From an uncultured delta proteobacterium (GTDB lineage Bacteria; Myxococcota_A; Polyangia; Fen-1088), in assembly GCA_963796685.1 (NCBI GenBank), contig CAWCMR010000025.1, forward strand, positions 1,280,001-1,344,000: DNA of 64,000 nucleotides, in the 5' to 3' direction. This document shows positions 2,459-36,128 of the stretch, one piece after another. Position 1 is the stretch's first letter, and each line of letters starts with the position of its first letter. The position numbers and the translations under genes were made by a program. The notes beneath the pieces were generated by a model. It saw only the letters and a list, made by a program, of their open reading frames with translations, was not told where the DNA came from and did no database searches.

Positions 2459-3545
2459 ATGCGGACAAGTAAAGGAAACGCGAAGAAAGCGGTGCTGGTT
2501 GCGCCGGTCGTTGCCGACTTTGATCCCGGTTACAACCAAAGCATTGCCCGGGTGCTCGAAGCCCATGGCTTTGATGTGAAGAGCTCGACCTTTTTCGTGC
2601 CTAGCCCCCCCGGGGTCATCAACCGAATCCGAATCGACCTGGGAACGCGGCTCGGGTTTGCTGCGTACTATCGCAATTACGTTCGCGACTACAACGCCTC
2701 GCTGCGTCTATTGCTGGGTGCTCATCGGCCGGATCTCGTCCTTGTCATACGTGGCGGGACGGTATTCCCGGAGACGCTCGATGCGATCCAGGGGGCTGTC
2801 AAGGTTCTTTGGTTGCACGACCGGGTGCAACGGTCGGGTCTCACCGAAGCGCAGCTTCGGTGCTACCAACATCGTTTCCTCTTCGAGGGGAATGACGTGG
2901 ACTGGCTCAAGGAGACCTATGGCCTCGACTCGGAGTTCTTGCCCGTCGGTTTCGACCCGGAAATCTACCACCCGGTGGAGGGTGTTCCTCGGGACGTAGA
3001 CGTCTTCTTTATCGGAGCCTACTACCCGGCCCGGCGTGCAACACTCGAAAGCTTGGCGCGCGACTTCAAGGGCAAGGTATTCAAGTTCTATGGGCGAAAT
3101 CTTCGCTATCGCGAGCCGGTAAGTTGGGTCAAAGCACTGGCTCTGTACCCTCTTCACTATCCAGGCACATTCGTAAATCGGAGCCTCCATGCGCCTGCGA
3201 TCAATCGTTTCTATGCGCGCGCCAAGATTTGTCTGAACATGCATCACCAGCAGAGTGAACAGGGGTGCAATCCGCGCGTGTTCGAGATCATGGGCGCCGG
3301 AGCCTTCCAACTCGTGGACGCCATCCCGTTCGTCAAGCAGCATTTTGACGGGCTGGTAGAGACCTACCAGGGATACGACCAGCTCTGTTCGAAGATTGAA
3401 CGTTGCCTCGCCGCTCACGATCTGCGCGATCGCCTTGCGGCGAGCAGCTACCAGCATGCTCTTCGAGCGACACACCTTCGCCCATCGAATCGTGCGTATT
3501 CTCGAAAGAAGCGAGCTCTGCAGCCCACGGGAGGGTCCTCTCTAA
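2459..3545 (+). CDS. CgeB-like (Glyco_trans_1_2) glycosyltransferase; apparent +1 frameshift near 3462
   Basis: FLPVGFDP, DVFFIGAYYPAR, KICLNMH, NPRVFEIMGAGAFQL. Removing one T near 3462 restores the family C-terminus ERHTFAHRIVRIL and a TAA at 3543-3545. Confidence 0.8.
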
Positions 3546-3607
3546 CCTCGTCGGAGCGCGCCTGGGGAACGCCATGCGATATCTGCCCACATCGGATCGA
3601 GACTGCC

Positions 3608-4969
3608 GTGACTAGCACCTTCGCAGAGATTGTCCTGGGACTCTTCATCCCACTCGCGATTGGCGCATTCTTCTTCATGCGGCCTCTCACGGCCGCGATG
3701 GTCGTCGCTTTCGGTGGAGAAATGTTCCTCCCGGTGGGCCCGTCCTTCCATCTGCCATTCTGTCCTCCCTTCAATAAGATCAACCTTCCATACCTGTGCA
3801 TTTTGGTTGGTTGCCTTCTGAAGAATCCAGTGAGATTCACGAGGCCTCCCAAGGAACGATGGTTTCTGGTCTTGTCGTTCCTCACGCTCGTCAGCGGTAC
3901 CATGACTGGGCTCACCAACGGCGACCCTTTGTTGTGCCAACCTTCGGTCGGATGCTTAATTCCTGGATTGACGTTCAAAGACGGGATGTTCGTCGCCGTC
4001 TCCGAGTTCGTTCCGGCCATTTTGGCATTCTACCTTGGCTACTCGCTTGTGCGCACGGCGAGAGATGTCGAACACCTACTGGTTGGCATTGCAACGGCAG
4101 GCCTCCTATACTGTCCATTTGCCATCGTCGAGATGCGCATGAGCCCCCAATTCCACAGGTGGATATTCGGCTACGATCTCGGCGGATTCGAGATGACCAT
4201 GCGCTGGGGTGGTTATCGCCCCATGGTATTCATGCGTCACGGGTTGGCATTGGCTCGGTTCTTCATGATGACGACGTTGGCGCTCTTTCTGCTGACGCGT
4301 ATAAGACGCAAACTGGGAGGATTGCCAATACGATTTCTCGCCTGGTTTCAGGCTTTTATCCTCGTCTTGTGTAGGAGTACCGGTGCCATTGTTCTAGGTG
4401 CCATCGGCGTTCTGTCCCTCTTATCCCTCAAGCCGAAACGACGACTCCTCTTGGGGACAGTCCTGGCCGCTGCGACGCTGCTCTATCCCTTGCTGCGCGC
4501 TGCGGACCTTTTTCCAGTCGCTCAGCTGCTCGACGCCGGTGGGGAATTGGGTGAGGATCGACGAGGTTCTCTTGCCTATCGCTTCGATAACGAGGACGAG
4601 CTGCTGGCACATGCACGCGAGCGGATCCTTTTCGGGTGGGGAGAGGCAGGACGCAATCTCGTGTACAACGGGCGCAATGGCTACGGCAGGGTGACGGACG
4701 GATACTGGATTATCGTTCTCGGCTTCGCTGGAGCAACGGGTTTCGTCATCAGCTTTGGAATCCTACTGTGGCCGGTATTGCGGTTGCCGGGCAAGCTGAG
4801 AGGCCACGCGGACGAATTGGAGAAGGAGACACTGATAGGCATCAGCCTCATCGTCGTTCTTGTGACGACGGACCTCATTCCCAATGGTCTTTGGTCCTAC
4901 TACGTCTATTTTCTTGCCGGTTCGCTCTCGCGGCGGTCGAGGGAGATCCAAATGAGTCGGCTACCATGA
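3608..4969 (+). CDS. wzy: Wzy polymerase / O-antigen-ligase-like polytopic membrane protein
   Basis: GTG at 3608; about 11-12 hydrophobic segments; EMRMSPQFHRWIFG, RWGGYRPMVFMRHGL, SLAYRFDNE, ERILFGWG and VTDGYWII typical of EPS-locus Wzy_C proteins. Artefactually fused to the upstream ORF in the track. Confidence 0.75.
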   Translation: MTSTFAEIVLGLFIPLAIGAFFFMRPLTAAMVVAFGGEMFLPVGPSFHLPFCPPFNKINLPYLCILVGCLLKNPVRFTRPPKERWFLVLSFLTLVSGTMTGLTNGDPLLCQPSVGCLIPGLTFKDGMFVAVSEFVPAILAFYLGYSLVRTARDVEHLLVGIATAGLLYCPFAIVEMRMSPQFHRWIFGYDLGGFEMTMRWGGYRPMVFMRHGLALARFFMMTTLALFLLTRIRRKLGGLPIRFLAWFQAFILVLCRSTGAIVLGAIGVLSLLSLKPKRRLLLGTVLAAATLLYPLLRAADLFPVAQLLDAGGELGEDRRGSLAYRFDNEDELLAHARERILFGWGEAGRNLVYNGRNGYGRVTDGYWIIVLGFAGATGFVISFGILLWPVLRLPGKLRGHADELEKETLIGISLIVVLVTTDLIPNGLWSYYVYFLAGSLSRRSREIQMSRLP

Positions 4970-5002: not shown

Positions 5003-6464
5003 TCAGGTTGCGATCCCCTGGCGCTTCTGCTGCAATCGATCCCACCCGTAGACGCAGGCCCAACCAGCCCCGACGCAAACGGTGATGACCAAGCCCTCGA
5101 TAAGGACGCCCAGCTTGGCCGGGCGAAAAACCACGGAATGCAAGGATGTCGCGATCCAGCGCGCCGCCAGCATTCCCACCAAGCTGGTAACCAGGACCAA
5201 GCCCGAGAGCGCCAAATCCTGACCCAGGCAAGCAACCCCTCTGCGCCGAGCGCCGACCACGGATGCCACGTAGCGAAGCAGCTCGGTGCTTGCGAGACCC
5301 ACGACAGCACCCGGGAATCCCCAACGTGCGTACCCAACCGGAATGAGGACTACCATCCCCGCGAGTTTCACCGCGTTGCCGATGGCAATCCATTTCGGTT
5401 GTCCCAGCGCGAGCAGGGCCGTGCCATTGGCGGTTTCGAGCGCGAGCAACCAGATTCCCGAGGCAAGAATCTGGATGATCCAGCCAGCACTCGTGGCCCG
5501 CGATTCGTAGAACAAACGGATGAGCGTGGGCCCCCCGCTGATGAAACAGGCCGAGGTGAAACCGCTGAGAAGCAACCACGGCCTACGGGTTCGTCGAAAA
5601 TCCAAGGAAAAGTCAGTGCCTTCGTAGTGTAGTCGGCTGAGCAAGGGGAAGAGCACGGTACTGAAGATCCGGCTGATGATCGAGAGCGGCATGGCCGCCC
5701 AGGTGGTCGCAACGCTGTACACTCCAAGGAGGCCCATTGGAATCAGCTTTCCAAATATCAGGCGGTCAGATTGCATCACTGCAAACGTGAGCATGGTACT
5801 CGCAAAAATCCATCGGCCGAAACTCAGCAAGGTTCGCGCGCAGATCGGATCCCATCGGAAACGGTTCTGAATGCCGGGGAGAAACGTATGGCTGAGGACG
5901 AGTCGAACGACGTTTGTAACAGCGGCCCCCAGAAGAAGTGCCCAAATGCTCCGGTATGCCCACGCCCAAAGTACCATGGTGATGAGACCAGAGGCCTGCC
6001 CTGCGAGATCCAATGCAGTGAGTCTGCCGAGAGAAATCGTCCTCGTGAGCGAGAAAAGCCGCGTTGAGTTGAAGCCGGAGACGAGGGACACGAGCGCCGC
6101 AACCGGGAGCAAATGGGCGAGTTGAGGCTGGTGGTAGAAGACAGCAACGGGCTTGGCGAGGATGAAGGCGGCGAGACAGAGCAAGCATTCACGGATGACC
6201 TGGATGGTCCAGGCAGTATTTAGGTAGTCGGGATCGCCGCCGCGCTCGTGCTGCACAATGCTGGGCCCGATACCCACATCGGAGAACATGGCAAGCCCCG
6301 TTAGGCACACATTGACAACGGCCATCAAGCCGAAAGCCTCTGGATAAAGCAGCCGCCACAGGATCAGGTTGTTGAGCAGACGGAGTCCCTGGCTACTCGC
6401 GTAACCCGTTAGGGTCCACGCTGATGCCCTCGCAACCCTGGAAGCTCAGGATCTGGGCGTTCAT
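5003..6464 (-). CDS. wzx: Wzx oligosaccharide flippase; apparent frameshift near 6443
   Basis: RASAWTL..SQGLRLLNNLILWRLLYPEAFGLM, FSDVGIGPSIVQ, NTAWTIQVIR, QSDRLIFGK..LGVYS. The probable ATG at 6464 is one base out of frame. Confidence 0.88.
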
Positions 6465-16288: not shown

Positions 16289-16300
16289 AACCAGCCCGAC

Positions 16301-17325: not shown

Positions 17326-17469
17326 CCTGCTTCCTCTGGGCCACATTCTATCTACACAACCACCATCCCGCTACGCTCGCTAGGATTTACCAAGACCCAT
17401 CGCACCGAGCCAATCCAACGTATTGGCATTTGTTCAACGCGATGTCTATGTTTGACGGACTAGGAAATC

Positions 17470-18531: not shown

Positions 18532-18666
18532 GTACGACTTTTCCTATTTCATAACGCAACGGTCCTGTCCCGTGTCGCGGACCGTCGCCGATCATCAAAA
18601 AATCGCCTGGACGGCGACAGCCTGTCCGTTCAACCTTAGACCACAAAGCCTCTGCAGCCCCCTAAC

Positions 18667-21664: not shown

Positions 21665-21711
21665 GTCACGGCTACCGACAAAAGTGCCCCCCAAACCCGT
21701 TCGAGGACCCC

Positions 21712-21939
21712 ATGGAACAAACCCTGCGAAATATCGTCGCCAAGATTGCAGAAATCCCGCCGGACTTTGCCCCCGACGCGTCCCTGCGCGACGACCTCAA
21801 GGTCGATTCGGTGCGCGCCCTCGAAATCCTTTTCGAGGTGGAAAAGGAATTGGCGATACCGGTTCCCGAGGCTCGCTACGGCGAGATACGTACTTTTCAG
21901 GACCTCGTGAAACTGGTCAGTTCGCTCAAGAGCGCTTAG
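21712..21939 (+). CDS. Acyl carrier protein (type II)
   Basis: 75 aa and acidic; DDLKVDSVRALEI; GAGGA RBS. Confidence 0.9.
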   Translation: MEQTLRNIVAKIAEIPPDFAPDASLRDDLKVDSVRALEILFEVEKELAIPVPEARYGEIRTFQDLVKLVSSLKSA

Positions 21940-21978
21940 CGCCCATCGTCGGACCGCATCCTGCAAGCGAGTTTGCAC

Positions 21979-23200
21979 GTGCAACGACGGGTCGTCATCA
22001 CTGGGTGTGGGATTCTGAGCTTCCGCAGGCAACGACCTCGACACATTCTGGCGTTCGCTGACGAGTGGCAAGAGCTTCATCAGCCCCCTGACGAGCTTCA
22101 CGTGTCCCGCGCAAGACGCCCCGGTCGGGGCCGAGCTGCAGATACCTGCCGAAGACGCGCTTTCGGCAGGTATCGACGAGAATTCCTACCGAGCACGCTG
22201 TGCGCACTTGGCCATGGCAGCGTCCCGCCGTGCGGTCGCGCATGCGGGCCTCGAGCCAGGTGACGAGTGCCTTTTCCGGGCCGGTGTCGTACTTGGCACG
22301 ACCATGGGCGAGGAACGACAAATCGGCGACCTCAGCGAACGCTGGGCAAACCTGGCGGCCGACAGCGTGGATGCCGGTTTTTGTGCACGCGCTGACAATC
22401 ACAAGCTCGCGGCAAACATCGCGTCCAGGTACGGCCTCGGCGGGCCCGTCCTACTTAGCGCGACGGCTTGCAGCTCGGGCAATGCCTCCGTGGCCTTGGC
22501 CTATGACCTAATCGCCGACGGCACGGCTGACCTCATGATCGCGGGCGGCGCCGACACCTTTACCCGTCTCACCTATTGCGGATTTGCCCGCATGAGCGCG
22601 TTATCCAAGACCGCGTGCAAACCCTTCGACAAGAATCGCGACGGCGTTTCCTTCGGCGAGGGCGCAGGCATTCTGGTCATTGAAGAGCTCGAACACGCCC
22701 GCGAGCGCGGTGCAAACATCCTCGCCGAAGTCCTGGGCTACGGCTTCAGCAACGACGCGCACCACGTGACCGCCCCCGAACCCAATGGCGCCGGTTTCAT
22801 TCGCGCGATCGAGCAGGCCCTGACGACAACCAGCACCCCACCGGACCAGATTGGCTACGTATGCGCGCATGGCACGGGAACCCAGTACAACGACCAGGGC
22901 GAAGTTCGTGCCATGAAAACCGTGTTCGGGGAGCGTGCGAGCCGAATCCCCATGAGCTCGATCAAGGCGGCTATCGGACACACCAACGGAGCAGCCGGTG
23001 CCATTGCGACCATCGCATGTACCCTCGCCCTGCTCCATCAGATGGTGCCCCCCACCGCCACCCTGGTCGAACCCGATCCGGAGTTCGCCATGGACTTTGT
23101 CATGGGCCGAGGCCGCAAGGCTTCGTTTTCGACCTGCCTCAACTTGTCCGCTGGCTTTGGCGGGTCCAACGCCTGCGTGTTGCTTGCGAGGGCGCCGTGA
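21979..23200 (+). CDS. Beta-ketoacyl-ACP synthase (KS, FabF-like); apparent +1 frameshift near 22021
   Basis: RRVVITGCG then, in the shifted frame, SAGNDLDTFWRSL; catalytic triad motifs TACSSG, HGTGTQYND and KAAIGHT are intact. Confidence 0.9.
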
Positions 23201-24405
23201 CCGGCCAAGCTGAACACGCCGTGGCCATCACCGGCGTCGGGATCCTGACTCCACTCGGCGATTCCATGGCCGGCGTCGTGGAGGCGCTGTGCGCCGGCCG
23301 CTCGTCGGTTGCTCCCATACAAAAGCCCGCGTCAGCCAATGGCTCCAGCTTCGCGGACTTCGAGGCTACCCGCTACGCCAACGTGCGCGGGATGCGCATC
23401 TACAATCGGACCACGCGGCTCGGGATCTGCGCCACGCGGCTGGCCATGGTCGATGCTGGACTGGAAAATGCCGGCTTTCCCGGCGAGCAACTCGGCGTAG
23501 TCATGGCCTCGACCTTTGGCCATTTCGACACCCTCATCGAATACGATCGTGGCCTTTTCACCCAGGGTCCGGCAAGCACCAATCCAGCGCTCATGCCCCT
23601 GGCCATCCCGAGTGCGCCCGGCGCCCTGATCGCCCTCTCCTTCGGTGCCAAGGCCTGTTCCATTACTCTCGCTGACGGCGGTGCCGGTGCACTCGATGCC
23701 CTGGGTCTGGCTGCGCGGCTCGCACGAGCGGGTCGGGTCGGCGCCTGCATCGTGGTCGCCGCGCTCGGCCTCTTCGACGAGCTGATTATGTCTGCGGCCC
23801 GCGCGGGCCAGCTCGCGCCACCGGATGCGTTTCGCGTATTCGACCAGCGCAGCGGCGGCAGTGCCTTCGGCGAGGCCGGGGTCGCGGTGATCGTGGAGAC
23901 AATGGCACATGCCCGCGCGCGAGGCGCCACGCCCAAGGGCTTCGTGGCCGGACAGGCCTCCACCTTCGCCGCAGACTCCGAGCGTTTGGAAGGGTCCCTA
24001 GCTCGCGCGTGCTCACAAGCCCTGCACAAAGCCGGGGTGGAACCTCACGGCCTCGGACTGGTGAGCAGCGGCGCCAATGGCTCGCCGGCAGTCGACCGGG
24101 CCGAAGCGCGCGCGCTGCTCTCTGTCCTGGGCCAATCGTCCGAACGGCCGGCAGTCACCGCGATCAAGTCCGCGCTCGGCGACATGCTCGACGCCAGTGG
24201 GCTGCTTCAGACAGTCGTCGCAATGTCTGCCTTGGCCGGAACACCAGCACCGCCCATCGCGAGGCTGGGCGAGGCCGCCTTCCCAGGTCTGCGCTACCTG
24301 GCCGAACCATCACCCATCGAGCAAGGTCATGCGCTGATCACAGGCACATCCCAAACCGGTGCATGCTCCGCGCTCGTGCTTTCGAGGGAACCTCGTGCCG
24401 GCTGA
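23197..24405 (+). CDS. Catalytically inactive KS paralogue (chain-length factor-like)
   Basis: GTGA overlap; VAITGVGILTPLG; Cys motif replaced by DGGAGA, HGTGT by GANGS, and KSxxGH by KSALGD. Confidence 0.82.
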   Translation: MTGQAEHAVAITGVGILTPLGDSMAGVVEALCAGRSSVAPIQKPASANGSSFADFEATRYANVRGMRIYNRTTRLGICATRLAMVDAGLENAGFPGEQLGVVMASTFGHFDTLIEYDRGLFTQGPASTNPALMPLAIPSAPGALIALSFGAKACSITLADGGAGALDALGLAARLARAGRVGACIVVAALGLFDELIMSAARAGQLAPPDAFRVFDQRSGGSAFGEAGVAVIVETMAHARARGATPKGFVAGQASTFAADSERLEGSLARACSQALHKAGVEPHGLGLVSSGANGSPAVDRAEARALLSVLGQSSERPAVTAIKSALGDMLDASGLLQTVVAMSALAGTPAPPIARLGEAAFPGLRYLAEPSPIEQGHALITGTSQTGACSALVLSREPRAG

Positions 24406-25144
24406 TGCTTCAAGGAAGGTGGCGGTCGTCACCGGAGGTTCGCGCGGCATTGGTCGCGCCGTGGTCGAGCACCTTGCACGCAAGGGCGTGGACGTCACCT
24501 TCACCTTCGTCGCCAACGAAGCCGCTGCGCAGAAAGTCGCGACCGATCTTTCCGCCGACGGGTTCGCCGCGCGAGGCCGGCGTGTGGATGCCCGCGATGT
24601 GGCAGCCTGCAAGGCCCTGGTACAATCCGTTATCGCCGAACGTGGCCGCATCGACCTGCTGGTCAACAATGCCGCCGTCCTCGCGGACAAGCTCTTGGCG
24701 CTGATGGCTCAAGAGGACTGGGACCATGTGGTGAATACCAGCCTGAACGGCCTCTTCGGAACCACCCAGCCGACGGCGAGGCAGATGATGCGCCAGCGTG
24801 CTGGACGAATCGTGAACCTGACTTCGGTCTCGGGAATCGTCGGCGTTGCCGGACAGACCAACTATTCAGCCGCCAAGGCTGCCATCATCGGTTTCACGCG
24901 CTCTCTGGCCAAAGAGCTTGCGCCCCTTGGCATCTGCGTGAACGCGGTGGCTCCCGGATTCGTCGACACGGAGATGCTGGCTATGTTCTCGCCCGAACAG
25001 CGCAAGGACGCGATTGCCCGCGTTCCCATGCACCGGTTCGCCCAGGCGGACGAAATCGCGGAGCTGGTTTGCTACCTGGCCCTCGAGGCGCCCTCGTACC
25101 TCACGGGCCAGACCCTTGTGATAGACGGGGGGCTCACGGCATAG
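24395..25144 (+). CDS. 3-oxoacyl-ACP reductase (FabG-like ketoreductase)
   Basis: TGGSRGIG, LVNNAA, GQTNYSAAK, PGFVDTEM, GQTLVIDGG. Confidence 0.92.
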   Translation: MPADASRKVAVVTGGSRGIGRAVVEHLARKGVDVTFTFVANEAAAQKVATDLSADGFAARGRRVDARDVAACKALVQSVIAERGRIDLLVNNAAVLADKLLALMAQEDWDHVVNTSLNGLFGTTQPTARQMMRQRAGRIVNLTSVSGIVGVAGQTNYSAAKAAIIGFTRSLAKELAPLGICVNAVAPGFVDTEMLAMFSPEQRKDAIARVPMHRFAQADEIAELVCYLALEAPSYLTGQTLVIDGGLTA

Positions 25145-28744: not shown

Positions 28745-31243
28745 ATGGGCCGCGAAAGCGACGACGACGAAAAACCTACGCACGAGACGCTTAGCTTTGC
28801 TGAGTTCGCCACGCGTGGCAACGTTCAGCAGCCTGGCTCCGACAGCGCGGCGTTGATGATTGCGGAAAAGGACGGGGGGCAGCAAGTGCACGTCCTGACG
28901 CGAAATCCCACAGTCATCGGTCGTTCAAGCAAAGCGGACTTGGTTCTGTCCGACCCTGGCGTCTCCGACTTCCATGCGCGGATTTTCAAGCACAGCTTCG
29001 GCTACACGGTCGAGGACATGGGCTCCGCAGAGGGCACTTTTCTTGGCGACAGGCGCGTCAGCCATGCGCGTTTGGTCAGTGGTGACGTGCTTCGATTGGG
29101 CGCGACGATCCTCACGTTTCTGGACGAACGGGTCAACGCGACAAGGGACAGGAGCTCGTCGCTTGTGCCTGTGCGCGCCACGGTCGCCGGCATGGCACTA
29201 CGCTCGACCATCGTTCGCGATTCATACTCCCAATCGTCCCAGAGAGCACAGCAGCCACGGATCAAGCCTATTCAAGAGCGCATGCGGCGGCCCTCTGATA
29301 GCGACGAAGCCGCTCCTTCACTTGAGGATATCCTACTCAAGATCCTCCGTGCTTGGCGCTACTTCAAACGCCACGCCTGGCTGATCAGTAGTCTGGCCAT
29401 GCTCGGGCTTACCCTGGGTGCCGCGAGCTTCAAGTTCTATCCACCGGTGCGAGCCGCCATCTGCGTGGTCACTCTGCATCCGGCGCCCAGGGCCAACCCC
29501 ATCGAGCCGCAATTTCGACCGGACCCGTCAGAATCGACCCAGTTCTTTGCCGGCGCCCAGCAGGCCTTCAAGAGCAACGAAAATATCATGGCCGCACTCA
29601 AGCGGATCGGCGTTCCCAATCCAACCATCCCACAGGCTATGAGCATCGCCAAGCGCCTGAAGGTCGAGAACGACGGCAACAATACTTATGCTGCCACGCT
29701 CACACCTCCCCTCTTCGGCCGTGGGGGGGATGAGCTCGTGGGAATGCTTGACGCCCTCGTCAAGACCTACGTTGAGACCGAGATCGAGAAGATGCTGCAA
29801 ACCATCGTCGCTGAGGTCACCTTCCTGCGTTCCCAAACCGAGATTTCAGAGAAGCGCTTGGACCAGATCATGCAGGACACCGTGAAATTCCGCGAAGCCA
29901 ATTCGGATCAGATCCTCGCGCAAGGCACGCTCGCGAGTTCACCAGGAGAGCTCGAGTCCAAGCGACTCGAAGTGTCCAGCCGGATCGAGCGTTTGACGGG
30001 CGAGCTGGAAGGCGTACGTAGCCAACTCGCGCGAGGGAGCGTTCTCAGTCAGGCCAAGACGCAGGCGGCGCAGTCCGATCGCGAAGCCCTGAACAATATA
30101 AGCCGCAAATTGGCTGAGCTGCGTGCGCAAGGTTTCGCCGATGGGCATCCCGACGTGCAACGGCTGCTCACCGAGCAGAAGAACCTGCAGAAGCTCGTCG
30201 ACGACCATCTTCACTCCAATGTGACTCAGTTCGAGAAGCGCTCGAACGTCGCCTACGATAGTCTGCAGAGTCAGGCCGACCAACTGGAGGCACAGCTCAG
30301 GGCTGCACGCGCTGAGCTAGGCACCGTCGGAGCCAGCTTGCACACGCTTCGCACCGTCAGCAGCGAGTCGCCCAAGGTCAATGCACGTCTGGAGGAGCTC
30401 GTGCGCATGAAGGAGGAAGTCGAGAAACAGCATGGCTTGCTTTTCGACCGCTTGAAGCAGGCCGAAGTTCAGCTCCAGCTCGAACGCGTGTCGGCAACCT
30501 CACGCTACGAGATTGTCGTGCCTACGCGCCTGGAACCGCCGCCGGGCCGCAAAGCCTTCGCCTTGCGCATGGCCATGGGGCTCGGCCTTGGACTGCTTCT
30601 CGCAGCCATCGTGCTCGGCATCGGTGAGCTGCGCAGGGGGTTCGCCCGACTTGCCGAGAAGGGCATGGTGGCAGGTCTGCTCGTTCTTCTATTCCTGCCG
30701 CCGCTGGGTTGCGCGCATGAGGAACGATTCATTTGGGCATCCGACTTGCCACCCAAGGATTCATCGGCTGAACCCGCGGTTCGGGCGCGCGACTCCATTC
30801 TCGTGGAAGTCGAGAAGCAGCCGAGCCTCTCCGGCGAATTCGTGGTGCGAGACGATGGACACTACACCCAACCCACGGTGGGCAGCGTCCGTGTGGCCGG
30901 CTTGACCGCCCGGCAAGCCGCGGCCCAAATCGCCCTTGCGCTGAAGGATGTCGTCGTCACGCCCGTGGTTTCAGTGTGGATCACCAAGTCCCCCCCCATC
31001 CATGTCAGCGTCGTCGGCGAGGTCAAGTCACCCGGCATCTACGAAATGACCCGCGACCGCAGCTTGCTCACCGTTCTGGCTCAAGCGGGCTGGCTGACGG
31101 AGTTTGCCCACGCCGATCGTGTCTTCGTCGTACGCGCTGGCTCCAACGAGAGAATCCGTTTCCGGGTTCGCGACATCACCGCTGCCGAGCCCTTCGTCGC
31201 CCAGTTCGTGCTTGCAGACGCGGATACGGTGGTCGTGGAGTAG
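28745..31243 (+). CDS. FHA domain / polysaccharide co-polymerase (GumC/Wzc-like) / OPX (Wza-like Poly_export plus SLBB) fusion
   Basis: FHA: IGRS..VSDFHA..EDMGSAEGTF. TM1, long coiled coil with HPDV, TM2. Then a lipoprotein-signal-like MVAGLLVLLFLPPLGC and OPX motifs VRDDG..P.VG.V.VAGLT, VVGEVKSPG, LAQAG, DTVVVE. Confidence 0.85.
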   Translation: MGRESDDDEKPTHETLSFAEFATRGNVQQPGSDSAALMIAEKDGGQQVHVLTRNPTVIGRSSKADLVLSDPGVSDFHARIFKHSFGYTVEDMGSAEGTFLGDRRVSHARLVSGDVLRLGATILTFLDERVNATRDRSSSLVPVRATVAGMALRSTIVRDSYSQSSQRAQQPRIKPIQERMRRPSDSDEAAPSLEDILLKILRAWRYFKRHAWLISSLAMLGLTLGAASFKFYPPVRAAICVVTLHPAPRANPIEPQFRPDPSESTQFFAGAQQAFKSNENIMAALKRIGVPNPTIPQAMSIAKRLKVENDGNNTYAATLTPPLFGRGGDELVGMLDALVKTYVETEIEKMLQTIVAEVTFLRSQTEISEKRLDQIMQDTVKFREANSDQILAQGTLASSPGELESKRLEVSSRIERLTGELEGVRSQLARGSVLSQAKTQAAQSDREALNNISRKLAELRAQGFADGHPDVQRLLTEQKNLQKLVDDHLHSNVTQFEKRSNVAYDSLQSQADQLEAQLRAARAELGTVGASLHTLRTVSSESPKVNARLEELVRMKEEVEKQHGLLFDRLKQAEVQLQLERVSATSRYEIVVPTRLEPPPGRKAFALRMAMGLGLGLLLAAIVLGIGELRRGFARLAEKGMVAGLLVLLFLPPLGCAHEERFIWASDLPPKDSSAEPAVRARDSILVEVEKQPSLSGEFVVRDDGHYTQPTVGSVRVAGLTARQAAAQIALALKDVVVTPVVSVWITKSPPIHVSVVGEVKSPGIYEMTRDRSLLTVLAQAGWLTEFAHADRVFVVRAGSNERIRFRVRDITAAEPFVAQFVLADADTVVVE

Positions 31244-31247
31244 CGGG

Positions 31248-32564
31248 ATGTTCGCCAGCGGACTCACCATCTTGTCCGCGCTATTCGTTCTCCAGGCCGA
31301 GGTGCAGTTCGAGGCCGGCACACGAATCGAAAGCAGTATTGGGGAAGCGCCCACGGGAACGACGCAGGTAACGTCCTCGAGCGCGGCGGGTTCGCCCGTC
31401 ACAACGTCCGTGCCGGCTGAGCAACCCCAGGTTGTGGTGGCGGCAACGCCGCTCCTCAGCCTGCGCTGGCTGGATGGGGTCGACGACCTTCGTGTAGAAT
31501 CCGCCAGCAGGATTCTCTGGCGTCCGGAGCCTCTCCCCGACTCTCGTCCACTTTTTCTCGAAACACTCGAGGCAACTCACACCAGACATCCGAGTAGGCG
31601 AAGTCGACTGCGGCTCAACTTCCTGGCCAGCTACGGAGAACAGGACTACACGTCCCTCCAGCAGCAACTCTCCAATCAGCCCGCCTTGCCACTCGCCACG
31701 ACCATGCTCATGCTCGATGCGACAGGTGGCGCATCATGGCGCAGCTCGCGGCGAACAACGCTGGATATCCAGCTAGGGGCGATGTATCGCCGCGCCTTCG
31801 ACACTTCTACCCTCGTGAACGGGACAGCAGGCTCCTCCGCGTCGACCGTCCCAACGCTCCCCACCCAATATACGCTCACGGCCGCTCCCGGACTGGCCTT
31901 CGCACTCACCCGGCGCTCGAGCGTGGATGCCGTCGTTTCCGTCATCGACACGGACAGCCAAGAAGTCGAGCTCGCATCCGGGCAGCCCGGCGACTTGAAT
32001 GTACTCTTGATCCAGCCTCAGGTGGGCATTCGCGAAGAGCTCACCGGCCGGCAACAATTGCACCTGGCTGCCGGATTCAGCTATGCGGTGACACTCCGTC
32101 GAACGGACATTGCCAACCTGACCTGGTATCCCGCGCCACTCCTTCAGATCGATCTCATCTCGGTCTTGCAGCGAACGCGCACGGCTGTCGTACGATCGAC
32201 CCTGGGTGCGGGAACGACAGAGTTCGTTGACCCCGTGCTTGGCGCAGTGGTCTCGCGTGGTCTCGCCCAGGCGGGTGTAGACGCCCAACTGGGGCTGTGG
32301 AGCGTGGGGGCACGCTGCGCGTTTGCGACCGATCTCTCCAGGACTCTGCCTACCATCGGGAATGTCTTCCCTGACGAAACCGCCGTGTCGGCCGAGATCC
32401 CGGTTCGCTATCGCACGTCGAGACACCTGGTTGTCGAGCTCGGGGGGCGATACACCGAGCGCGCTCCCCACCTGGGCGCGCCGGGGTTCGCCTGGCACAA
32501 CCGAGAGCTGTGGCTGTACCTCAATCTGACTGCCTCTTCGCGGCCCTCGTCCACGCGCTCCTAG
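31248..32564 (+). CDS. Putative outer-membrane beta-barrel of EPS export (EpsX/GumB-partner-like)
   Basis: Signal-like N-terminus; many amphipathic beta-strands (VVELGGRYTER, ELWLYLNLTA); starts 4 bp after the OPX stop, as in myxobacterial epsY-epsX. Confidence 0.6.
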   Translation: MFASGLTILSALFVLQAEVQFEAGTRIESSIGEAPTGTTQVTSSSAAGSPVTTSVPAEQPQVVVAATPLLSLRWLDGVDDLRVESASRILWRPEPLPDSRPLFLETLEATHTRHPSRRSRLRLNFLASYGEQDYTSLQQQLSNQPALPLATTMLMLDATGGASWRSSRRTTLDIQLGAMYRRAFDTSTLVNGTAGSSASTVPTLPTQYTLTAAPGLAFALTRRSSVDAVVSVIDTDSQEVELASGQPGDLNVLLIQPQVGIREELTGRQQLHLAAGFSYAVTLRRTDIANLTWYPAPLLQIDLISVLQRTRTAVVRSTLGAGTTEFVDPVLGAVVSRGLAQAGVDAQLGLWSVGARCAFATDLSRTLPTIGNVFPDETAVSAEIPVRYRTSRHLVVELGGRYTERAPHLGAPGFAWHNRELWLYLNLTASSRPSSTRS

Positions 32565-32657
32565 CACTCTTGGCATCGCGCGCCTGGGTCGGTGGCCGCG
32601 CGGAGTACCGGCCACGTCGCGCGTGACCGACTTCGATGTCATCGTATGATTGGTGCC

Positions 32658-33974
32658 ATGACCAACGTCGCAGCGGATAGGTCCGACCCGAGCACCCTGG
32701 TGCTGTCCGGGGAAACTCAGGAGGCATTGGAAGCCGCCACGCTGAGGCTGGCGACCTGGATGGCTGAGGGCTGCCGCGACGGAACCGTGGGTTGGCCGCT
32801 GCCGGAGCTCGCGGCCGCCTTGCGCAACCGCTGCAAGCCGCTACCCTGGCGTCGGGCAGTGCGCGTCGATAGCTGGCGAGACGCGATCGCCGCCCTTGCG
32901 AACAAGAGCCGCCAGGTGACAGCGACGGCGATGGCGAGTCCGCCCAAACTGTTTCTATCGTTTCCCGGCCAGGGCTCGCTGCGGCCGGGGGTGCTGTCAC
33001 GACTGTCGACCGGCGCGCCAGCCTGGGCCGCGCACCTCGCGCGCTATTCCAACCTGGGCCGCGAGCTTTCCGGCTTCGACAGCGCCGTGTGGCTCGGCGA
33101 TGCCGGGGCCGACGCCGATCCCGTGCTCAAGGACAACGCCAAGACCCAGCTCGCCATCTTCTGCGCGGGCGCATCGCTTGGCCGCTGGCTGCTTGACCTC
33201 GGCTTGCGCCCCGACGGGTACATCGGCCATTCGCTCGGGGAATGGATTGGCGCCAATCTCGCGTCTGCGCTCAGCGACCAGGACGCCATACGGGCGGTCC
33301 ACCACCGCGGGCGGTTGATGCAGGCCACCGGAGCCGGCGCGGCGCTCATCGTGCGGTTGGCGCCGGATGTCCTGGCGCCGCAATTGCCCGATGAGATCTC
33401 GCTGGCCTGCGTGAACGCGCCCGACGTGTGCCTGATTAGCGGTCGCCCCGACGCGATCGCGGCCTGCGGCCAAAAGCTCTCCGCTGCGCATATCATCACA
33501 CGCTCGGCCCCTATCCACGTCGCTGTGCACTCGCCCGCGATGGACGAAGTGGTCGAGCCATTCCTGCGCGAGCTCGCGCCGCTCGACTTCGCCGCGCCCG
33601 CGACACCGCTGTTGTCGACCGTGACCGGTGAATGGATGACCGATGTGCAAGCGCGCGACCGCGAGTACTGGGCCCGGCAGCTGCGCCGCCCTGTGCGCTT
33701 CGACAAGGCTGCGAAGACGCTGCTGGCCGAGCCGTGCGCCGTCGTGCTCGAGGTGGGCATGGGCGCTGCGCTCACCAGCCTGGTGACCATGCAGGCACGC
33801 GGCCGCGCCAACCTGCGTGCCCTGCCCCTGCTGGGCCGTGACGAGCCGCCCGCCGAGGGCTACGACCCTGTCAGGGTCCACCAAGCCCTGGCCGAGCTGT
33901 GGGCCGCCGGTATCGCCATCGATCTGACGGGCGAGGTAGAACCGACGCGCCCCGCGCCCAAATTGCCGATCTAA
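32658..33974 (+). CDS. Stand-alone PKS-type acyltransferase (AT) with KS-AT linker
   Basis: FLSFPGQGS, TQLAIF, PDGYIGHSLGE, RGRLMQ, VAVHS, YWARQLRRPVRF, LEVG, LAELWAAG. Confidence 0.88.
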   Translation: MTNVAADRSDPSTLVLSGETQEALEAATLRLATWMAEGCRDGTVGWPLPELAAALRNRCKPLPWRRAVRVDSWRDAIAALANKSRQVTATAMASPPKLFLSFPGQGSLRPGVLSRLSTGAPAWAAHLARYSNLGRELSGFDSAVWLGDAGADADPVLKDNAKTQLAIFCAGASLGRWLLDLGLRPDGYIGHSLGEWIGANLASALSDQDAIRAVHHRGRLMQATGAGAALIVRLAPDVLAPQLPDEISLACVNAPDVCLISGRPDAIAACGQKLSAAHIITRSAPIHVAVHSPAMDEVVEPFLRELAPLDFAAPATPLLSTVTGEWMTDVQARDREYWARQLRRPVRFDKAAKTLLAEPCAVVLEVGMGAALTSLVTMQARGRANLRALPLLGRDEPPAEGYDPVRVHQALAELWAAGIAIDLTGEVEPTRPAPKLPI

Positions 33975-34000
33975 GTCCAAGCTAGACCGAAGTCCCGGGG

Positions 34001-34693
34001 TCACTTGCCATAGCGATCGAAGCCCCCAGAGGCCAGGCGCATCCCGGTCGCGACCATCTCGCGATCGATGACCAGGTGGCCCATGAGGCGTTCCTGGGGC
34101 AGGCCGAGGGTCCGGGCCGAGGCGATCAGCTCGGAGAAGAAGATGCCTTGTTGCGGTACGAGCTCGACATGAGCGTCGGAGAATTCAAGGTATCGCTTGA
34201 AGGTTGGGAAGAGCGCCTTGTAGGTCGTTTCCTTGGCCGAAAAGACCATGCGCGCATGGACCCCCGGGTCGGCGGCACGGTTGGCTTCGCGCAGCTCTTC
34301 TCGGTCGAGCACCAGGGACCACACCTCGGCGGGAAGAGGCAAGCGCGGCTCGGCGTCGAGGCCCAGACCCAAAGCCGTGCTTCGATGGGCAACCGCGACG
34401 GCACAGAACCCGCCCGGAAAGCCGTCGGTGTGGGTGATGGAGCCGACCACCGATGGCGGCCAGATGGGAGTACGGTCAGCCCTCGCGAGCAAGGGAAAGT
34501 CGATGATGCCAATTTCAGCCAAAGCCTTGCGTGCACAGCTTCGCCCAGCCCTGAGCTCCTTCCGTCGCTTCTCTACCGAGTTGGCAACGAGGACGGCTTC
34601 TTCGGGGCGAAGCGGCTCGTGTTCCCCATCAAGAGTTGTCTCCCTCACAACCACGCCTGGCAGGCCGAAGAAGTCAGCAAGACGCACTAGCAT
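34001..34693 (-). CDS. 4'-phosphopantetheinyl transferase (EntD/Sfp family)
   Basis: KRRKELRAGRSCAR, PIWP..VVGSITHT, GLGLDAE, FSAKETTYKA. Confidence 0.92.
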   Translation of the reverse strand: MLVRLADFFGLPGVVVRETTLDGEHEPLRPEEAVLVANSVEKRRKELRAGRSCARKALAEIGIIDFPLLARADRTPIWPPSVVGSITHTDGFPGGFCAVAVAHRSTALGLGLDAEPRLPLPAEVWSLVLDREELREANRAADPGVHARMVFSAKETTYKALFPTFKRYLEFSDAHVELVPQQGIFFSELIASARTLGLPQERLMGHLVIDREMVATGMRLASGGFDRYGK

Positions 34694-34718: not shown

Positions 34719-36128
34719 TTACCAGGCGTTGCGACCCTTCACCGCGCTGAAAATGGTCATGAAGATGATCTTCAGGTCGAGCAGCAAATTCCAATTACGA
34801 ATGTACTCCAGATCGTGTTCAACGCGCTGTTGCATCTGTTGGAGGTCGGCTGTTTCCCCTCGTAGGCCATTGATCTGAGCCCATCCGGTGATGCCTGGCT
34901 TGACGATGTGACGGAGCATGTACCCATGGATGAGGCCACGGTACTGCTCGTTGTGAGCCACCGCGTGCGGCCTCGGCCCGACCAGGGATAGCTCACCCGT
35001 GATGACCTGCAGGAACTGCGGGAACTCGTCGAGGGAGGTCCGCCGCAAGAAGCGCCCTACCCTGGTAATACGCGGGTCGTTCTTGGAGGCTTGAACGATG
35101 TTTGGCCCGTCCTCGCAAACGCTCATGGTGCGGAACTTGAGGATGCGAATCTTCTTGCCGGATAGACCGTAGCGCCATTGGCGGAAAATGATCGGACCAG
35201 GCGAGCTGACCTTGACGGCAACAGCGATGCAGATCATCGGAATCGCCGTGAGCAGCACGATAACGCTGCCCAAAACCAGGTCTTCCAGGCGCTTGACCAC
35301 ACCCACGATTCCGTCGAAGGGAGAGTCGTGCAGGGCCACGACAGGCAGGTCGCCAACCTGGGACCACTGCGCGGCAAGCAAGCTATACGAGAACAAATCG
35401 GCCACCAGATAGACGGCAGCTGTGGTGTCCGCGAGCAGCGAGATGAGCCCCGCCGTACGCAGATCGGCACGCAATGGAAGGGCGACATAGACGACATCGA
35501 CCACTCCCTCGCGGCACGCGCGAAGTAGGTCTTGCGAATTTCCCATGAACCGCAGGTGAGGATGCTTGGGAACGCCGCGACGCTTCTCTGAACGATCGTC
35601 GTACACCCCGTGCAACTTCAGCCCAAGCCATGGAAGCTTGTCAAACGACTCGGCAAGGCGTTCGGCATCCGCAGTGCAGCCGAGTATCGCAACGCGACGT
35701 TCGTTGTGCCCATGGGCGCGAAAAATGCGCAGTCCAACACGAACGCCGACGCGAAGCATACAAATCATGAGTGGCGCGAAGACGAACCAAGCAAGCGCCG
35801 TGACACGTGAGTAGTGGGTTGAGGTCTTGGTGAAAAACCAGAACCCGAGAAGCACCAGCGGGACCGGCAGCCACGCAACCAGGGTATGCCTGATCTCGCG
35901 AAGAATGCTCTCCATCCGCCAAGTGCGATAGAGGCCCTTCACCTCCGCTGAAAAGCCGTAGACCAGCAAGCCGATGACGGTAACGGTCATCGCATCCTGC
36001 CGCCAATGCTCCCGATAGACGGCGTAAGCCAAAGTCTGAGCGAGAATGATCATCGCCGCGTCGGCTAAGCGCTGCACAGAGCTAACCCACGTTGCATGCC
36101 TCCGAAGTGGACCGCTTGTTGATCCCAT
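34719..36128 (-). CDS. wcaJ: Undecaprenyl-phosphate hexose phosphotransferase (WcaJ/EpsZ priming enzyme)
   Basis: Four N-terminal TMs; KRLED, KFRTM, DPRITRVGRFLRRTSLDEFPQ, SLVGPRP, VKPGITGWAQING, DLEYI. Confidence 0.93.
   Translation of the reverse strand: MGSTSGPLRRHATWVSSVQRLADAAMIILAQTLAYAVYREHWRQDAMTVTVIGLLVYGFSAEVKGLYRTWRMESILREIRHTLVAWLPVPLVLLGFWFFTKTSTHYSRVTALAWFVFAPLMICMLRVGVRVGLRIFRAHGHNERRVAILGCTADAERLAESFDKLPWLGLKLHGVYDDRSEKRRGVPKHPHLRFMGNSQDLLRACREGVVDVVYVALPLRADLRTAGLISLLADTTAAVYLVADLFSYSLLAAQWSQVGDLPVVALHDSPFDGIVGVVKRLEDLVLGSVIVLLTAIPMICIAVAVKVSSPGPIIFRQWRYGLSGKKIRILKFRTMSVCEDGPNIVQASKNDPRITRVGRFLRRTSLDEFPQFLQVITGELSLVGPRPHAVAHNEQYRGLIHGYMLRHIVKPGITGWAQINGLRGETADLQQMQQRVEHDLEYIRNWNLLLDLKIIFMTIFSAVKGRNAW

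What the first reader, a model, noticed from the sequence alone, without database searches (positions are those of the whole stretch)
28745..32564. Single-chain FHA / co-polymerase / OPX export protein with an internal lipoprotein signal, next to a beta-barrel gene
Seen: one 832-aa frame carries FHA, TM1, a periplasmic coiled coil, TM2, a short basic loop (RRGFARLAEKG), a third hydrophobic helix ending in lipobox-like PLGC (ATG 30665, Cys codon 30710) and a short two-domain OPX with no C-terminal membrane helix. A barrel-like gene starts 4 bp later. Known: in M. xanthus the co-polymerase EpsV, short OPX EpsY and barrel EpsX are separate proteins forming a composite translocon. Inference: either a covalently tethered PCP-OPX conduit, or a polyprotein whose OPX is lipidated and released by Lgt/LspA at the internal lipobox, or an internal restart. 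The fusion looks real: a protein starting at 30665 would lack a basic n-region, and a single-base indel in the linker would make the PCP overlap the OPX by roughly 55 or 240 bp.
Basis: partly seen in the sequence, partly recalled or inferred. Interest (0 to 1): 0.8.

Follow-up and report, generated by a model that had tools for sequence, protein, structure and literature searches.

The report
Fused co-polymerase and export-lipoprotein gene
One gene joins an inner-membrane polysaccharide co-polymerase to an outer-membrane export lipoprotein and keeps the lipoprotein's signal and lipid-attachment cysteine in the middle of the chain, so the cell probably makes one precursor and cuts it in two at that site.

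Summary
The 832-aa frame (28745..31243) has this order: FHA domain, TM1, helical PCP periplasmic domain, TM2, 13-residue basic loop, short hydrophobic stretch, PLGC (Cys656), then a two-domain OPX (Poly_export + SLBB). An 18-strand-type beta-barrel gene starts 4 nt later.

The fusion is not an assembly error. In a 95-protein alignment, 73 relatives (39-81% identical) span the junction in one frame. In sister genera the FHA-PCP and the OPX are adjacent separate genes. There each OPX starts with a typical lipoprotein signal peptide whose Cys aligns with Cys656. The internal signal is therefore the retained signal peptide of a gene that was once separate.

In the fused forms the Cys is kept in 73 of 73 and the -1 residue is G, A or S in 73 of 73. 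The h-region varies in sequence but is always hydrophobic. The internal ATG is unique to this genome (1 of 73).

A FastTree tree suggests one fusion and up to three later fissions. In one fission the OPX became a stand-alone lipoprotein again.

Best reading (about 0.6): a polyprotein that Lgt/LspA cleaves at the internal lipobox. This releases an outer-membrane OPX lipoprotein and leaves a three-helix FHA-PCP. Cleavage was not shown here. Six literature searches gave no such architecture.

The parts
28745..31243 (+). Fused gene, 832 aa: FHA, PCP, internal lipoprotein signal, Class-3 (D1D2) OPX
   Evidence: ORF. Domains. 73 relatives span the junction in frame. Seven genomes carry it with no stop.
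28910..29101 (+). FHA domain (aa 56-119; folded core about aa 36-126), cytoplasmic
   Evidence: Pfam PF00498, 61.5 bits. AF2 beta-sandwich with pLDDT about 90. Foldseek matches GarA and other FHA domains with TMt 0.84-0.91. G59, R60, S74 and H77 are nearly invariant.
29132..29317 (+). Low-complexity cytoplasmic linker (aa 130-191)
   Evidence: pLDDT below 50. Lowest sequence conservation of all segments, 0.44.
29369..29437 (+). TM1 (about aa 209-231)
   Evidence: Hydropathy peak at 211-229. AF2 helix 211-231.
29438..30562 (+). PCP periplasmic domain: alpha/beta base plus long helices (aa 232-606)
   Evidence: TIGR03007 over 335-634. PslE profile hit over profile positions 282-625, E 0.006. Foldseek hit to Wzc 9r68_I, E 1.4e-9. 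AF2 helices 328-385 and 502-585.
30563..30625 (+). TM2 (aa 607-627), preceded by a Pro/Gly-rich motif
   Evidence: Hydropathy 2.27. AF2 helix 602-637. P593, R608 and G612 are invariant.
30626..30664 (+). Cytoplasmic basic loop (aa 628-640), which acts as the n-region of the internal signal
   Evidence: Read. Net charge is 0 to +4 across the 73 sequences, and +1 to +3 in 71 of them.
30665..30712 (+). Internal lipoprotein-type signal: h-region aa 641-652, lipobox-like PLGC aa 653-656, Cys656 codon 30710-30712
   Evidence: Cys in 73 of 73 and G/A/S at -1 in 73 of 73. The uncharged run before the Cys is 13-22 residues. It aligns with the N-terminal signals of separate OPX genes. pLDDT is below 50 over 636-659.
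30710..31240 (+). Predicted mature OPX (aa 656-832): about 25-residue linker, Poly_export D1 (677-746), SLBB D2 (754-831), no outer-membrane helix
   Evidence: Pfam. M. xanthus WzaB crystal structure 9n9a: E 6.4e-19 by profile and E 1.7e-9 at 30% identity by Foldseek.
31248..32564 (+). Outer-membrane beta-barrel gene (438 aa), Wzp/EpsX-like by fold and synteny
   Evidence: AF2 all-beta barrel, pLDDT 82. VIA-align top rows are OccAB1 Z 17.3, AlgE Z 17.0 and Wzi Z 17.0. A homologue follows the OPX or the fused gene in 14 of the 15 other loci where that region is held.
34719..36128 (-). Initiating phosphoglycosyl transferase (Bac_transf) of the same cluster
   Evidence: Pfam, 213.7 bits. Syntenic with the PCP/OPX genes in 4 of the 7 related loci compared.
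5003..6328 (-). Wzx-type flippase
   Evidence: Pfam Polysacc_synt_3, 149 bits.
2459..4969 (+). Multi-TM protein with a glycosyltransferase-like domain and a weak Wzy_C match (candidate polymerase)
   Evidence: Wzy_C 30.5 bits, just below the 31.7 cut-off. The stop-to-stop frame around it (2087-4966) has 10 hydropathy peaks.

Best explanation
The gene encodes a polyprotein of a Wzx/Wzy-type polysaccharide export machine.

Origin (inferred). In an ancestor of this Polyangia genus, a deletion or stop loss joined the FHA-PCP gene to the next gene, a Class-3 OPX lipoprotein.

Insertion (inferred). The chain inserts with FHA in the cytoplasm, then TM1, the periplasmic co-polymerase domain and TM2. 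The former OPX signal peptide acts as a third N-in/C-out helix that carries the OPX domain into the periplasm.

Processing (inferred).
1. Lgt lipidates Cys656.
2. LspA cuts between Gly655 and Cys656.
3. The lipidated 177-residue OPX is sorted to the outer membrane.
4. There it rings the periplasmic mouth of the neighbouring 18-strand-type barrel and meets the PCP apex.
5. The FHA-PCP keeps the signal helix as a C-terminal third transmembrane segment.

Regulation (inferred). The FHA domain probably couples export to Ser/Thr-kinase signalling, in place of the tyrosine-kinase module of Wzc-type PCPs.

Shown here: the architecture, its conservation, the homology of the internal signal to N-terminal lipoprotein signals, and the retention of the lipobox. 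Not shown: insertion topology, lipidation, cleavage, sorting and the FHA role.
For: 1. Separate genes in sister genera. FHA-PCP, OPX and barrel are separate adjacent genes in G018, G013, G024 and G020. In G034 they are separate and divergent. In G020 a single TGA separates the two genes, which lie in the same frame.
2. Homology of the signal. Each of the six separate OPX genes examined starts with an n-region, h-region and lipobox whose Cys aligns with Cys656, followed by the same conserved motif ending in W.
3. Retention in the fused forms. Of 73 fused sequences, Cys is kept in 73, -1 is G in 65, A in 7 and S in 1, and +8 is W in 73. The uncharged run before the Cys is 13-22 residues and the loop net charge is +1 to +3 in 71 of 73.
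4. Signal-peptide behaviour. The h-region has the lowest sequence conservation of the three hydrophobic segments (0.50 against 0.61 and 0.66) but the highest hydropathy. AF2 gives 636-659 a pLDDT below 50, while blocks over TM1 and TM2 average 65-88.
5. Fission after fusion. On the PCP tree the fused forms make one clade (99 support), with three split lineages nested inside it. In G006:C199 the OPX now follows the PGT gene and has a new basic N-terminus in front of the same h-region and Cys. So the OPX works as a free lipoprotein in this lineage.
6. Requirement for lipidation. Passages of PMC12819527 report that WzaB must be lipidated and anchored in the outer membrane to form octamers and to function.
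7. Geometry. The PCP helix 502-585 is about 125 Å long (my estimate). The Cys-to-D1 linker is at most about 28 residues.
8. Enzyme present. Two LspA genes are in the genome.
9. Engineered precedent. The title of Hayashi et al. 1985 (J Biol Chem 260:5753) reports modification and processing of internalised prolipoprotein signals. I saw the title only, in a reference list.
Against: - There is no direct evidence of lipidation or cleavage.
- The lipobox of this genome (PPLGC) and of 29 other fused forms (30 of 73 in all, mostly LPLGC) fails a PROSITE-like lipobox pattern that I recalled from memory. In 28 of the 30 the cause is a Pro at -3 or -4.
- A crude genome-wide scan found Pro at -3 in only 39 of 766 candidate lipoprotein N-termini and PLGC in 2.
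- Residues +1 to +8 are conserved as well, so the Cys could be constrained for another reason.
- No natural internal type II signal came up in my searches. LspA access next to a polytopic protein is untested.
- The tree is FastTree only, with long outgroup branches.
Confidence: 0.62

Rival explanations
1. Uncleaved single chain. The third hydrophobic segment is a permanent membrane anchor, with or without lipid on Cys656. The OPX domain stays tethered to the inner membrane beside its own PCP, forming a fixed 1:1 PCP-OPX conduit.
For: One frame is conserved in 73 sequences. The lipobox is non-canonical, with Pro at -3 in the query and in 25 of 73 sequences. PCP and OPX are known to interact: co-evolving residues at the PCP apex and the OPX base are described in PMC9603273 (passages). 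One published model has OPX oligomers sitting on PCP oligomers (same passages).
Against: The strict retention of Cys and of G/A/S at -1 (73 of 73) is not needed for a plain anchor. The uncharged run before the Cys has a median of 16 residues (range 13-22), shorter than the roughly 20-residue TM1 and TM2 segments, and AF2 models it poorly. A linker of at most about 28 residues cannot bring D1 to a PCP apex about 125-165 Å above the membrane (figure for WzcB from PMC9603273). Non-lipidated periplasmic WzaB was monomeric in solution and in the crystal, and was tested for rescue of the wzaB deletion; lipidation-dependent octamers and essential outer-membrane association are stated in the figure legend and section title (PMC12819527). 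Secondary fissions gave a free lipoprotein OPX.
Confidence: 0.22
2. Internal translation restart. The OPX is made separately from ATG 30665, or a nearby start, inside the long frame.
For: An in-frame ATG at 30665 is preceded by a purine-rich stretch.
Against: Met at this column occurs in 1 of 73 sequences, and 58 have Ala. A product starting there has no basic n-region. The purine-rich stretch ends 1-2 nt before the ATG.
Confidence: 0.04
3. Artefact or decaying gene. A sequencing or assembly error, or a recent stop loss, joined two genes.
For: The genome is a draft of 26 contigs, 88.6% complete. Relatives G002 and G004 show frameshift-like breaks elsewhere in the gene. Public reads did not cover the junction.
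Against: 73 independent database sequences at 39-81% identity and seven genomes keep the frame open across the junction. Both halves are well conserved, with majority-residue frequencies of 0.76 and 0.81.
Confidence: 0.01

Closest known systems
Myxococcus xanthus EpsV / EpsY / EpsX (WzcX / WzaX / WzpX) composite translocon
   Same: The gene order is PCP, short D1D2 OPX lipoprotein, then an 18-stranded-type barrel. The best NCBIfam model for the OPX part is EpsY. The barrel fold class is AlgE-like, as reported for EpsX (bioRxiv 10.1101/2022.04.04.486985, passages).
   Different: Here the PCP and OPX form one frame and the type II signal is internal. The PCP carries an N-terminal FHA domain. The EpsY score of 116 bits is far below the equivalog cut-off of 320. 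The barrel matches no Pfam or NCBIfam model.
M. xanthus WzcB / WzaB / WzpB (Class-3 OPX system; PDB 9n9a)
   Same: The OPX part matches the WzaB crystal structure: E 6.4e-19 by profile and 30% identity by Foldseek. It has the same D1 and D2 architecture, with the lipobox Cys followed by a flexible linker.
   Different: WzcB has a C-terminal tyrosine kinase, whereas this PCP ends 13 residues after TM2 and has FHA instead. WzaB's C-terminal di-Phe, reported at the porin interface, is replaced by an invariant V-E end.
E. coli Wza-Wzc and P. aeruginosa PslD-PslE complexes (PDB 9r68, 9v6l)
   Same: PCP fold and OPX D1/SLBB folds.
   Different: Those are separate proteins. Wza has D3 and an outer-membrane helix, so it needs no barrel partner.
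Engineered internalised prolipoprotein signals (Hayashi et al. 1985, J Biol Chem 260:5753) and the Bradyrhizobium FbcH cytochrome b/c1 polyprotein
   Same: A signal sequence placed inside a chain can still be recognised and cut.
   Different: The first is an artificial construct; I saw the title only, in the reference list of PMC2114505. The second is recalled from memory and involves signal peptidase I, not LspA. Neither joins a polytopic inner-membrane protein to an outer-membrane lipoprotein.

Membership tests
Polysaccharide co-polymerase (PCP) | Two transmembrane helices flanking a large, mostly helical periplasmic domain | tested here: met
   Hydropathy. AF2 helices 193-231 and 602-637, with long helices between them. 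Foldseek hit to Wzc, E 1.4e-9.
Polysaccharide co-polymerase (PCP) | Sequence membership in a curated PCP model | tested here: inconclusive
   TIGR03007 scores 83 bits, below the 278.85 cut-off. No Pfam Wzz or GumC hit at E 0.01 or better. PslE by profile at E 0.006.
Polysaccharide co-polymerase (PCP) | Pro/Gly-rich motif just before TM2 (motif recalled from memory) | tested here: met
   P593, R608 and G612 are invariant. P600 and G616 are nearly invariant.
PCP-2a (Wzc type) | C-terminal cytoplasmic tyrosine autokinase domain | tested here: not met
   Only 13 residues lie between TM2 and the internal signal, and there is no kinase hit.
OPX (Poly_export family) | Poly_export (D1) domain above Pfam's cut-off | tested here: met
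   48.6 bits against a cut-off of 28.
Class-3 / D1D2 OPX | Only Poly_export plus SLBB, with no Wza_C helix and no GfcC module | tested here: met
   Pfam. The chain ends after SLBB, and the AF2 model shows no terminal helix.
Bacterial lipoprotein (type II signal) | n-region, h-region and lipobox with an invariant Cys | tested here: met
   Cys in 73 of 73 and a small -1 residue in 73 of 73. A recalled PROSITE-like pattern is matched by only 43 of 73 and not by this genome's PPLGC.
Bacterial lipoprotein (type II signal) | Signal located at the N-terminus of the translated chain | tested here: not met
   The signal starts at residue 628 of 832.
Bacterial lipoprotein (type II signal) | Lipidation by Lgt and cleavage by LspA | not testable with these tools
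   Only the enzyme's presence could be shown: two LspA genes.
Wzp / EpsX-type polysaccharide porin | About 18-stranded outer-membrane barrel encoded next to a Class-3 OPX gene | tested here: met
   AF2 barrel with pLDDT 82. The top VIA-align rows are 18-stranded barrels, including AlgE and Wzi. Synteny holds in 14 of the 15 other loci where the region is held. I estimate the strand number at 18-20 from the DSSP string.
Wzp / EpsX-type polysaccharide porin | Sequence homology to EpsX/WzpX | not tested
   No M. xanthus sequence was fetched. There is no Pfam or NCBIfam hit.
FHA domain | Pfam FHA above cut-off, and the conserved Gly-Arg and Ser-x-x-His residues (motif recalled from memory) | tested here: met
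   61.5 bits. G59, R60, S74 and H77 are nearly invariant. The usual Asn of the N-G motif is Glu96.

The most novel reading that the evidence does not exclude
This would be a natural bacterial polyprotein. A polytopic inner-membrane co-polymerase and an outer-membrane lipoprotein are translated as one chain and separated by the lipoprotein pathway (Lgt/LspA) at an internal lipobox. It would be the first natural substrate with an internal type II signal. It would fix the two ring-forming partners of a trans-envelope polysaccharide channel at 1:1, under Ser/Thr-phosphorylation control through FHA.
Probability: 0.55. Interest if true: 0.75.

Novelty: new variant of a known kind. Interest (0 to 1): 0.62.

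Why it matters
- Lipoprotein biogenesis. If the cut occurs, Lgt and LspA accept a signal buried behind two transmembrane helices of a natural protein. That widens what should count as a lipoprotein in genome annotation, because predictors look only at N-termini.
- Polysaccharide export. The family contains fused forms, ancestral split forms and re-split forms. This is a natural experiment on whether PCP and Class-3 OPX must be made together and in equal numbers.
- Regulation. The N-terminal FHA domain occurs in a large family of PCPs of about 600-750 aa: most of the 150 best representatives. It points to Ser/Thr-kinase control of chain export where the tyrosine-kinase module is absent. Two searches for it in the literature found nothing.

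Tried and rejected
- Reads over the junction. One soil run held a small share of the stretch. Only a 151-nt contig at 30743-30893 was laid and the junction was not covered. No RNA holder was listed.
- Complex prediction of OPX 657-832 with the barrel: no verdict, score 0.00 against a mark of 0.32. This counts neither for nor against binding.
- Foldseek of the barrel against the PDB gave only generic barrels, with TM-scores normalised to the query of 0.30-0.49. VIA-align was more informative.
- Earlier notes of this scan: none for this genome.
- Literature searches that gave no paper on such an architecture:
  - 'FHA domain' with 'polysaccharide co-polymerase': 0 papers.
  - 'Poly_export' with 'FHA': 0 papers.
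  - 'internal lipobox' and three variants: 1 unrelated paper.
  - internal signal peptide, LspA and polyprotein: 11 papers, by title and abstract eight viral and the others unrelated.
  - prolipoprotein and internal-signal terms: 15 of 125 listed, of which only a reference-list title was relevant.
  - Word searches for fusion, fused, FHA, Wzz and GumC inside three OPX papers found no PCP-OPX fusion.
  - Their supplementary tables of OPX architectures could not be opened and might list such proteins.
- Internal restart and assembly artefact were rejected for the reasons given under the rival explanations.
- The TTG 28463 start was rejected because homologues begin at the Met of 28745.


Full report
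**What is there**

The + strand frame is open from 28463 to the TAG at 31241-31243. ATG 28745 gives 832 residues. In an alignment of 61 full-length relatives the first Met, T15 and L16 are nearly invariant, so I take 28745 as the start.

Domain and structure evidence:
- Pfam places an FHA domain at 56-119, Poly_export at 677-746 and SLBB at 754-831, all above their cut-offs. There is no Wza_C.
- NCBIfam's best models are EpsY for 647-832 and the XrtA chain-length determinant for 335-634, both well below their equivalog cut-offs.
- Hydropathy shows three hydrophobic segments: 211-229, 609-627 and 640-658.
- The AF2 model (61-row alignment, mean pLDDT 77) shows, in order:
  - a confident FHA sandwich;
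  - a disordered linker (130-191);
  - helix 193-231;
  - an alpha/beta base and long helices (328-385, 502-585);
  - helix 602-637;
  - a stretch with pLDDT below 50 (636-659);
  - a confident two-domain OPX.
- Foldseek matches Wzc (9r68_I), the M. xanthus WzaB crystal structure (9n9a, 30% identity) and many FHA domains.
- A profile search of PDB sequences gives 9n9a at 6.4e-19, Wza, PslD, and the PCP PslE at 0.006.

The next gene starts at 31248, 4 nt after the stop.

**The barrel**

The 438-aa product has no Pfam or NCBIfam match.

With a 14-row alignment built from syntenic genes, AF2 gives an all-beta barrel with pLDDT 82 and pTM 0.75. From the DSSP string I estimate 18-20 strands.

VIA-align against 48,161 chains puts 18-stranded barrels on top: OccAB1 Z 17.3, AlgE Z 17.0 (318 aligned, rmsd 4.8) and Wzi Z 17.0. 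BcsC, PgaA and PelB barrels follow at Z 12.5-13.3. These rows are effectively tied, so only the fold class can be named.

A homologue of this gene follows the OPX or the fused gene in 14 of the 15 other loci where that region is held. In L002 it is broken over four frames. L009, L010, L011 and L019 hold no OPX or barrel.

**The fusion is real**

The word-indexed search returned 101 proteins. I aligned P0003-P0097 (95 sequences) and dropped P0098-P0103, which match only the FHA or only the OPX part, at E-values of 1e-15 to 2e-4.

Of the 95, 73 cover both TM2 and OPX D1 in one chain. Their identity to the query runs from 39% to 81%.

In 41 genomes, an uninterrupted full-length match occurs in seven: G000, G010, G001, G005, G007, G008 and G012. 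All seven belong to the window's own genus, which has 13 genomes in the set. The other genus members:
- G002 and G004 have the junction intact but a frameshift-like break near residues 354 and 394.
- G003 and G011 show only partial matches (1-555; 3-552 and 536-832 on separate contigs). In G011 one of them reaches a contig end.
- G009 lacks a close homologue.
- G006 has two PCP-only copies.

Against 1.84 billion 50%-identity representatives, 5 of the 150 best rows cross the junction in one stretch. They are P0026, P0092 and P0105, plus fragments P0106 and P0125. Most of the others are proteins of 600-750 aa that match query residues of about 30-640, which is the FHA-PCP alone. So FHA-PCP is a large family and the fusion is a narrow branch of it.

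**Where the internal signal comes from**

In four other genera of the same family (G018, G013, G024, G020) the FHA-PCP, the OPX and the barrel are separate consecutive frames. In G034, from another family, the PCP is divergent from the OPX and barrel.

In G020 the two genes lie in the same frame, separated by one TGA and 13 codons.

All six separate OPX genes I read (these five plus G006:C199) begin with a Met, an uncharged hydrophobic run and a small residue before a Cys. Five of the six have basic residues before the run; G034 has none. The Cys aligns with Cys656, and the motif after it, ending in an invariant Trp at +8, is the same. Five of the six fit a PROSITE-like lipobox pattern that I recalled from memory.

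The internal signal of the fused gene is therefore the N-terminal type II signal of a formerly separate lipoprotein. The fusion removed the PCP tail, the stop and the OPX n-region, and left a 13-residue loop.

**Is the signal still used?**

Among the 73 fused sequences:
- The Cys is present in 73.
- The -1 residue is G in 65, A in 7 and S in 1.
- +1 is A in 68.
- +8 is W in 73.
- The uncharged run before the Cys is 13-22 residues, median 16.
- The loop has net charge +1 to +3 in 71 of 73.

The h-region shows the lowest majority-residue frequency of the three hydrophobic segments (0.50, against 0.61 for TM1 and 0.66 for TM2). It also has the highest mean hydropathy (2.54, with a minimum of 1.69 in any sequence). 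This is how signal peptides evolve.

Met641 is found only in this genome (1 of 73; 58 have Ala), so a conserved internal start is excluded.

One point counts against the reading. The query's PPLGC and 29 other fused forms (30 of 73) fail the recalled lipobox pattern. In 28 of the 30 the cause is a Pro at -3 or -4.

I also ran a crude, uncalibrated scan of the genome for lipoprotein-like N-termini. It found 766 candidates with a relaxed lipobox:
- Pro at -3 in 39.
- xLGC in 40.
- PLGC in 2.

BamD in the window has a non-canonical box as well. Two LspA genes are present.

**Evolution**

I built a FastTree tree of alignment positions corresponding to query residues 200-630, with 83 rows. I left out the fragments and near-duplicates P0020, P0036, P0038, P0057, P0063, P0064, P0069-P0071, P0084, P0087-P0089, P0091, P0093, P0094 and P0097.

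The tree puts all 62 fused rows, together with 16 split rows, in one clade with 99 support. The five other-genus split forms fall outside it. The label needs four changes, which fits one fusion and three later losses.

The three nested split lineages differ in weight:
- P0053, and the pair P0066/P0067, could be truncations or errors.
- The third is a 13-cluster clade whose PCPs end inside what was the h-region. One member, P0080, has the same 649-aa length in four of its six cluster members and is seen on 7 contigs.

In G006:C199 the PCP has moved to a divergent position. The OPX now follows the PGT gene directly and has a new basic N-terminus before the old h-region and Cys.

Caveats on the tree: it uses FastTree only, the outgroup branches are long, and related sequences are not independent.

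**Mechanism**

The topology works. TM2 ends in the cytoplasm, and the basic loop and h-region form an N-in/C-out hairpin that places the OPX in the periplasm.

Published results on the homologous Class-3 OPX WzaB report three things (PMC12819527, passages seen):
- It is lipidated at its signal-peptidase-II Cys.
- It forms octamers only when lipidated and anchored in the outer membrane.
- Its outer-membrane association is essential, as a section title states. A periplasmic variant without the lipobox was built to test rescue of the wzaB deletion; the outcome lay outside the passage I saw.

PMC9603273 (passages) gives these figures:
- about 327 Å for the M. xanthus periplasm;
- up to about 165 Å for the WzcB periplasmic domain;
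- about 62 Å for WzaB.

It also reports co-evolving contacts between the PCP apex and the OPX D1 base.

In the model of this protein the descending PCP helix has 84 residues, about 125 Å by my estimate. The Cys-to-D1 linker has at most about 28 residues. An uncleaved OPX could therefore reach neither the PCP apex nor the barrel.

I conclude that cleavage at Gly655/Cys656 and sorting to the outer membrane is the most likely course (0.62). The products would be a three-helix FHA-PCP (residues 1-655) and a 177-residue lipoprotein. Insertion, lipidation, cleavage and sorting are all inferred.

The benefit could be fixed 1:1 synthesis of two ring-forming partners. The repeated fissions suggest that the fusion is close to neutral.

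The FHA domain keeps the Gly-Arg and Ser-x-x-His residues (motif recalled from memory). It stands where other PCPs depend on a tyrosine kinase, which suggests Ser/Thr-kinase control. This too is inference.

**Context**

The window holds a Wzx/Wzy-type cluster:
- Wzx (5003-6328, 149 bits);
- a multi-TM protein with a weak Wzy_C match (2459-4969);
- several GT4 and GT2 genes;
- a WecG-type transferase;
- a DegT aminotransferase;
- two hexapeptide transferases;
- the initiating PGT (34719-36128).

Acyl-chain enzymes are interleaved with them:
- an ACP-thioesterase protein;
- an acyl-CoA dehydrogenase;
- an AMP-ligase;
- a ketosynthase;
- a ketoreductase;
- an acyltransferase;
- a PPTase.

**Novelty**

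The parts and the system are known. The single-chain form, with a retained internal type II signal and the FHA-PCP, did not come up in the literature I could search. Database names are only 'FHA domain-containing protein' or 'polysaccharide export outer membrane protein'. Supplementary tables of the OPX surveys were closed and may list such architectures.

I rate it a new variant of a known kind, with interest 0.62.

Noticed in passing
P0233 (metagenome protein, 502 aa): A second kind of OPX fusion. A GT2 glycosyltransferase (4-319) is followed in the same chain by a basic stretch, a hydrophobic run, a lipobox Cys and a D1D2 OPX (347-501). It is one cluster on one 4.7-kb contig, so it may be an error. 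If it is real, internal OPX lipoprotein signals arose more than once.
   Followed up: partly
P0090, P0092, P0095, P0096, P0105: Fused PCP-OPX forms without an FHA domain sit at the base of the fused clade. P0092 and P0095 instead have N-terminal regions of about 200 residues rich in Pro, Ser and Gly. P0105 starts just before TM1.
   Followed up: partly
window 12458-25144 and 32592-34693: Acyl-chain and PKS-like genes lie inside the polysaccharide cluster: an ACP-thioesterase protein, an acyl-CoA dehydrogenase, an AMP-ligase, a ketosynthase, a ketoreductase, a MAT-like acyltransferase and a PPTase. This suggests an acylated glycan or a glycolipid product.
   Followed up: no
L002 (G010:C12), barrel gene: In the closest relative with a fused gene (81% identical), the barrel gene matches in four different frames. 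It is either a pseudogene or carries assembly errors.
   Followed up: no
G002:C11 and G004:C6: In these two genomes of the genus the fused gene is broken into two overlapping pieces near residues 354 and 394, while the PCP-OPX junction stays intact.
   Followed up: no
window 29024-29038 (aa 94-98): The FHA loop that usually carries Asn-Gly reads Ser-Ala-Glu-Gly-Thr, with Glu96 nearly invariant in the family. The canonical motif is recalled from memory.
   Followed up: no
window 41610-43439: A Mur-ligase-like protein with a C-terminal GNAT acetyltransferase domain, next to a BamD-like lipoprotein gene (39979-40863).
   Followed up: no
window 2459-4969: One 836-aa protein combines a glycosyltransferase-like domain (192-339) with a weak Wzy_C match at 627-743; the stop-to-stop frame around it (2087-4966) has 10 hydropathy peaks. 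It may be a GT-polymerase fusion.
   Followed up: no
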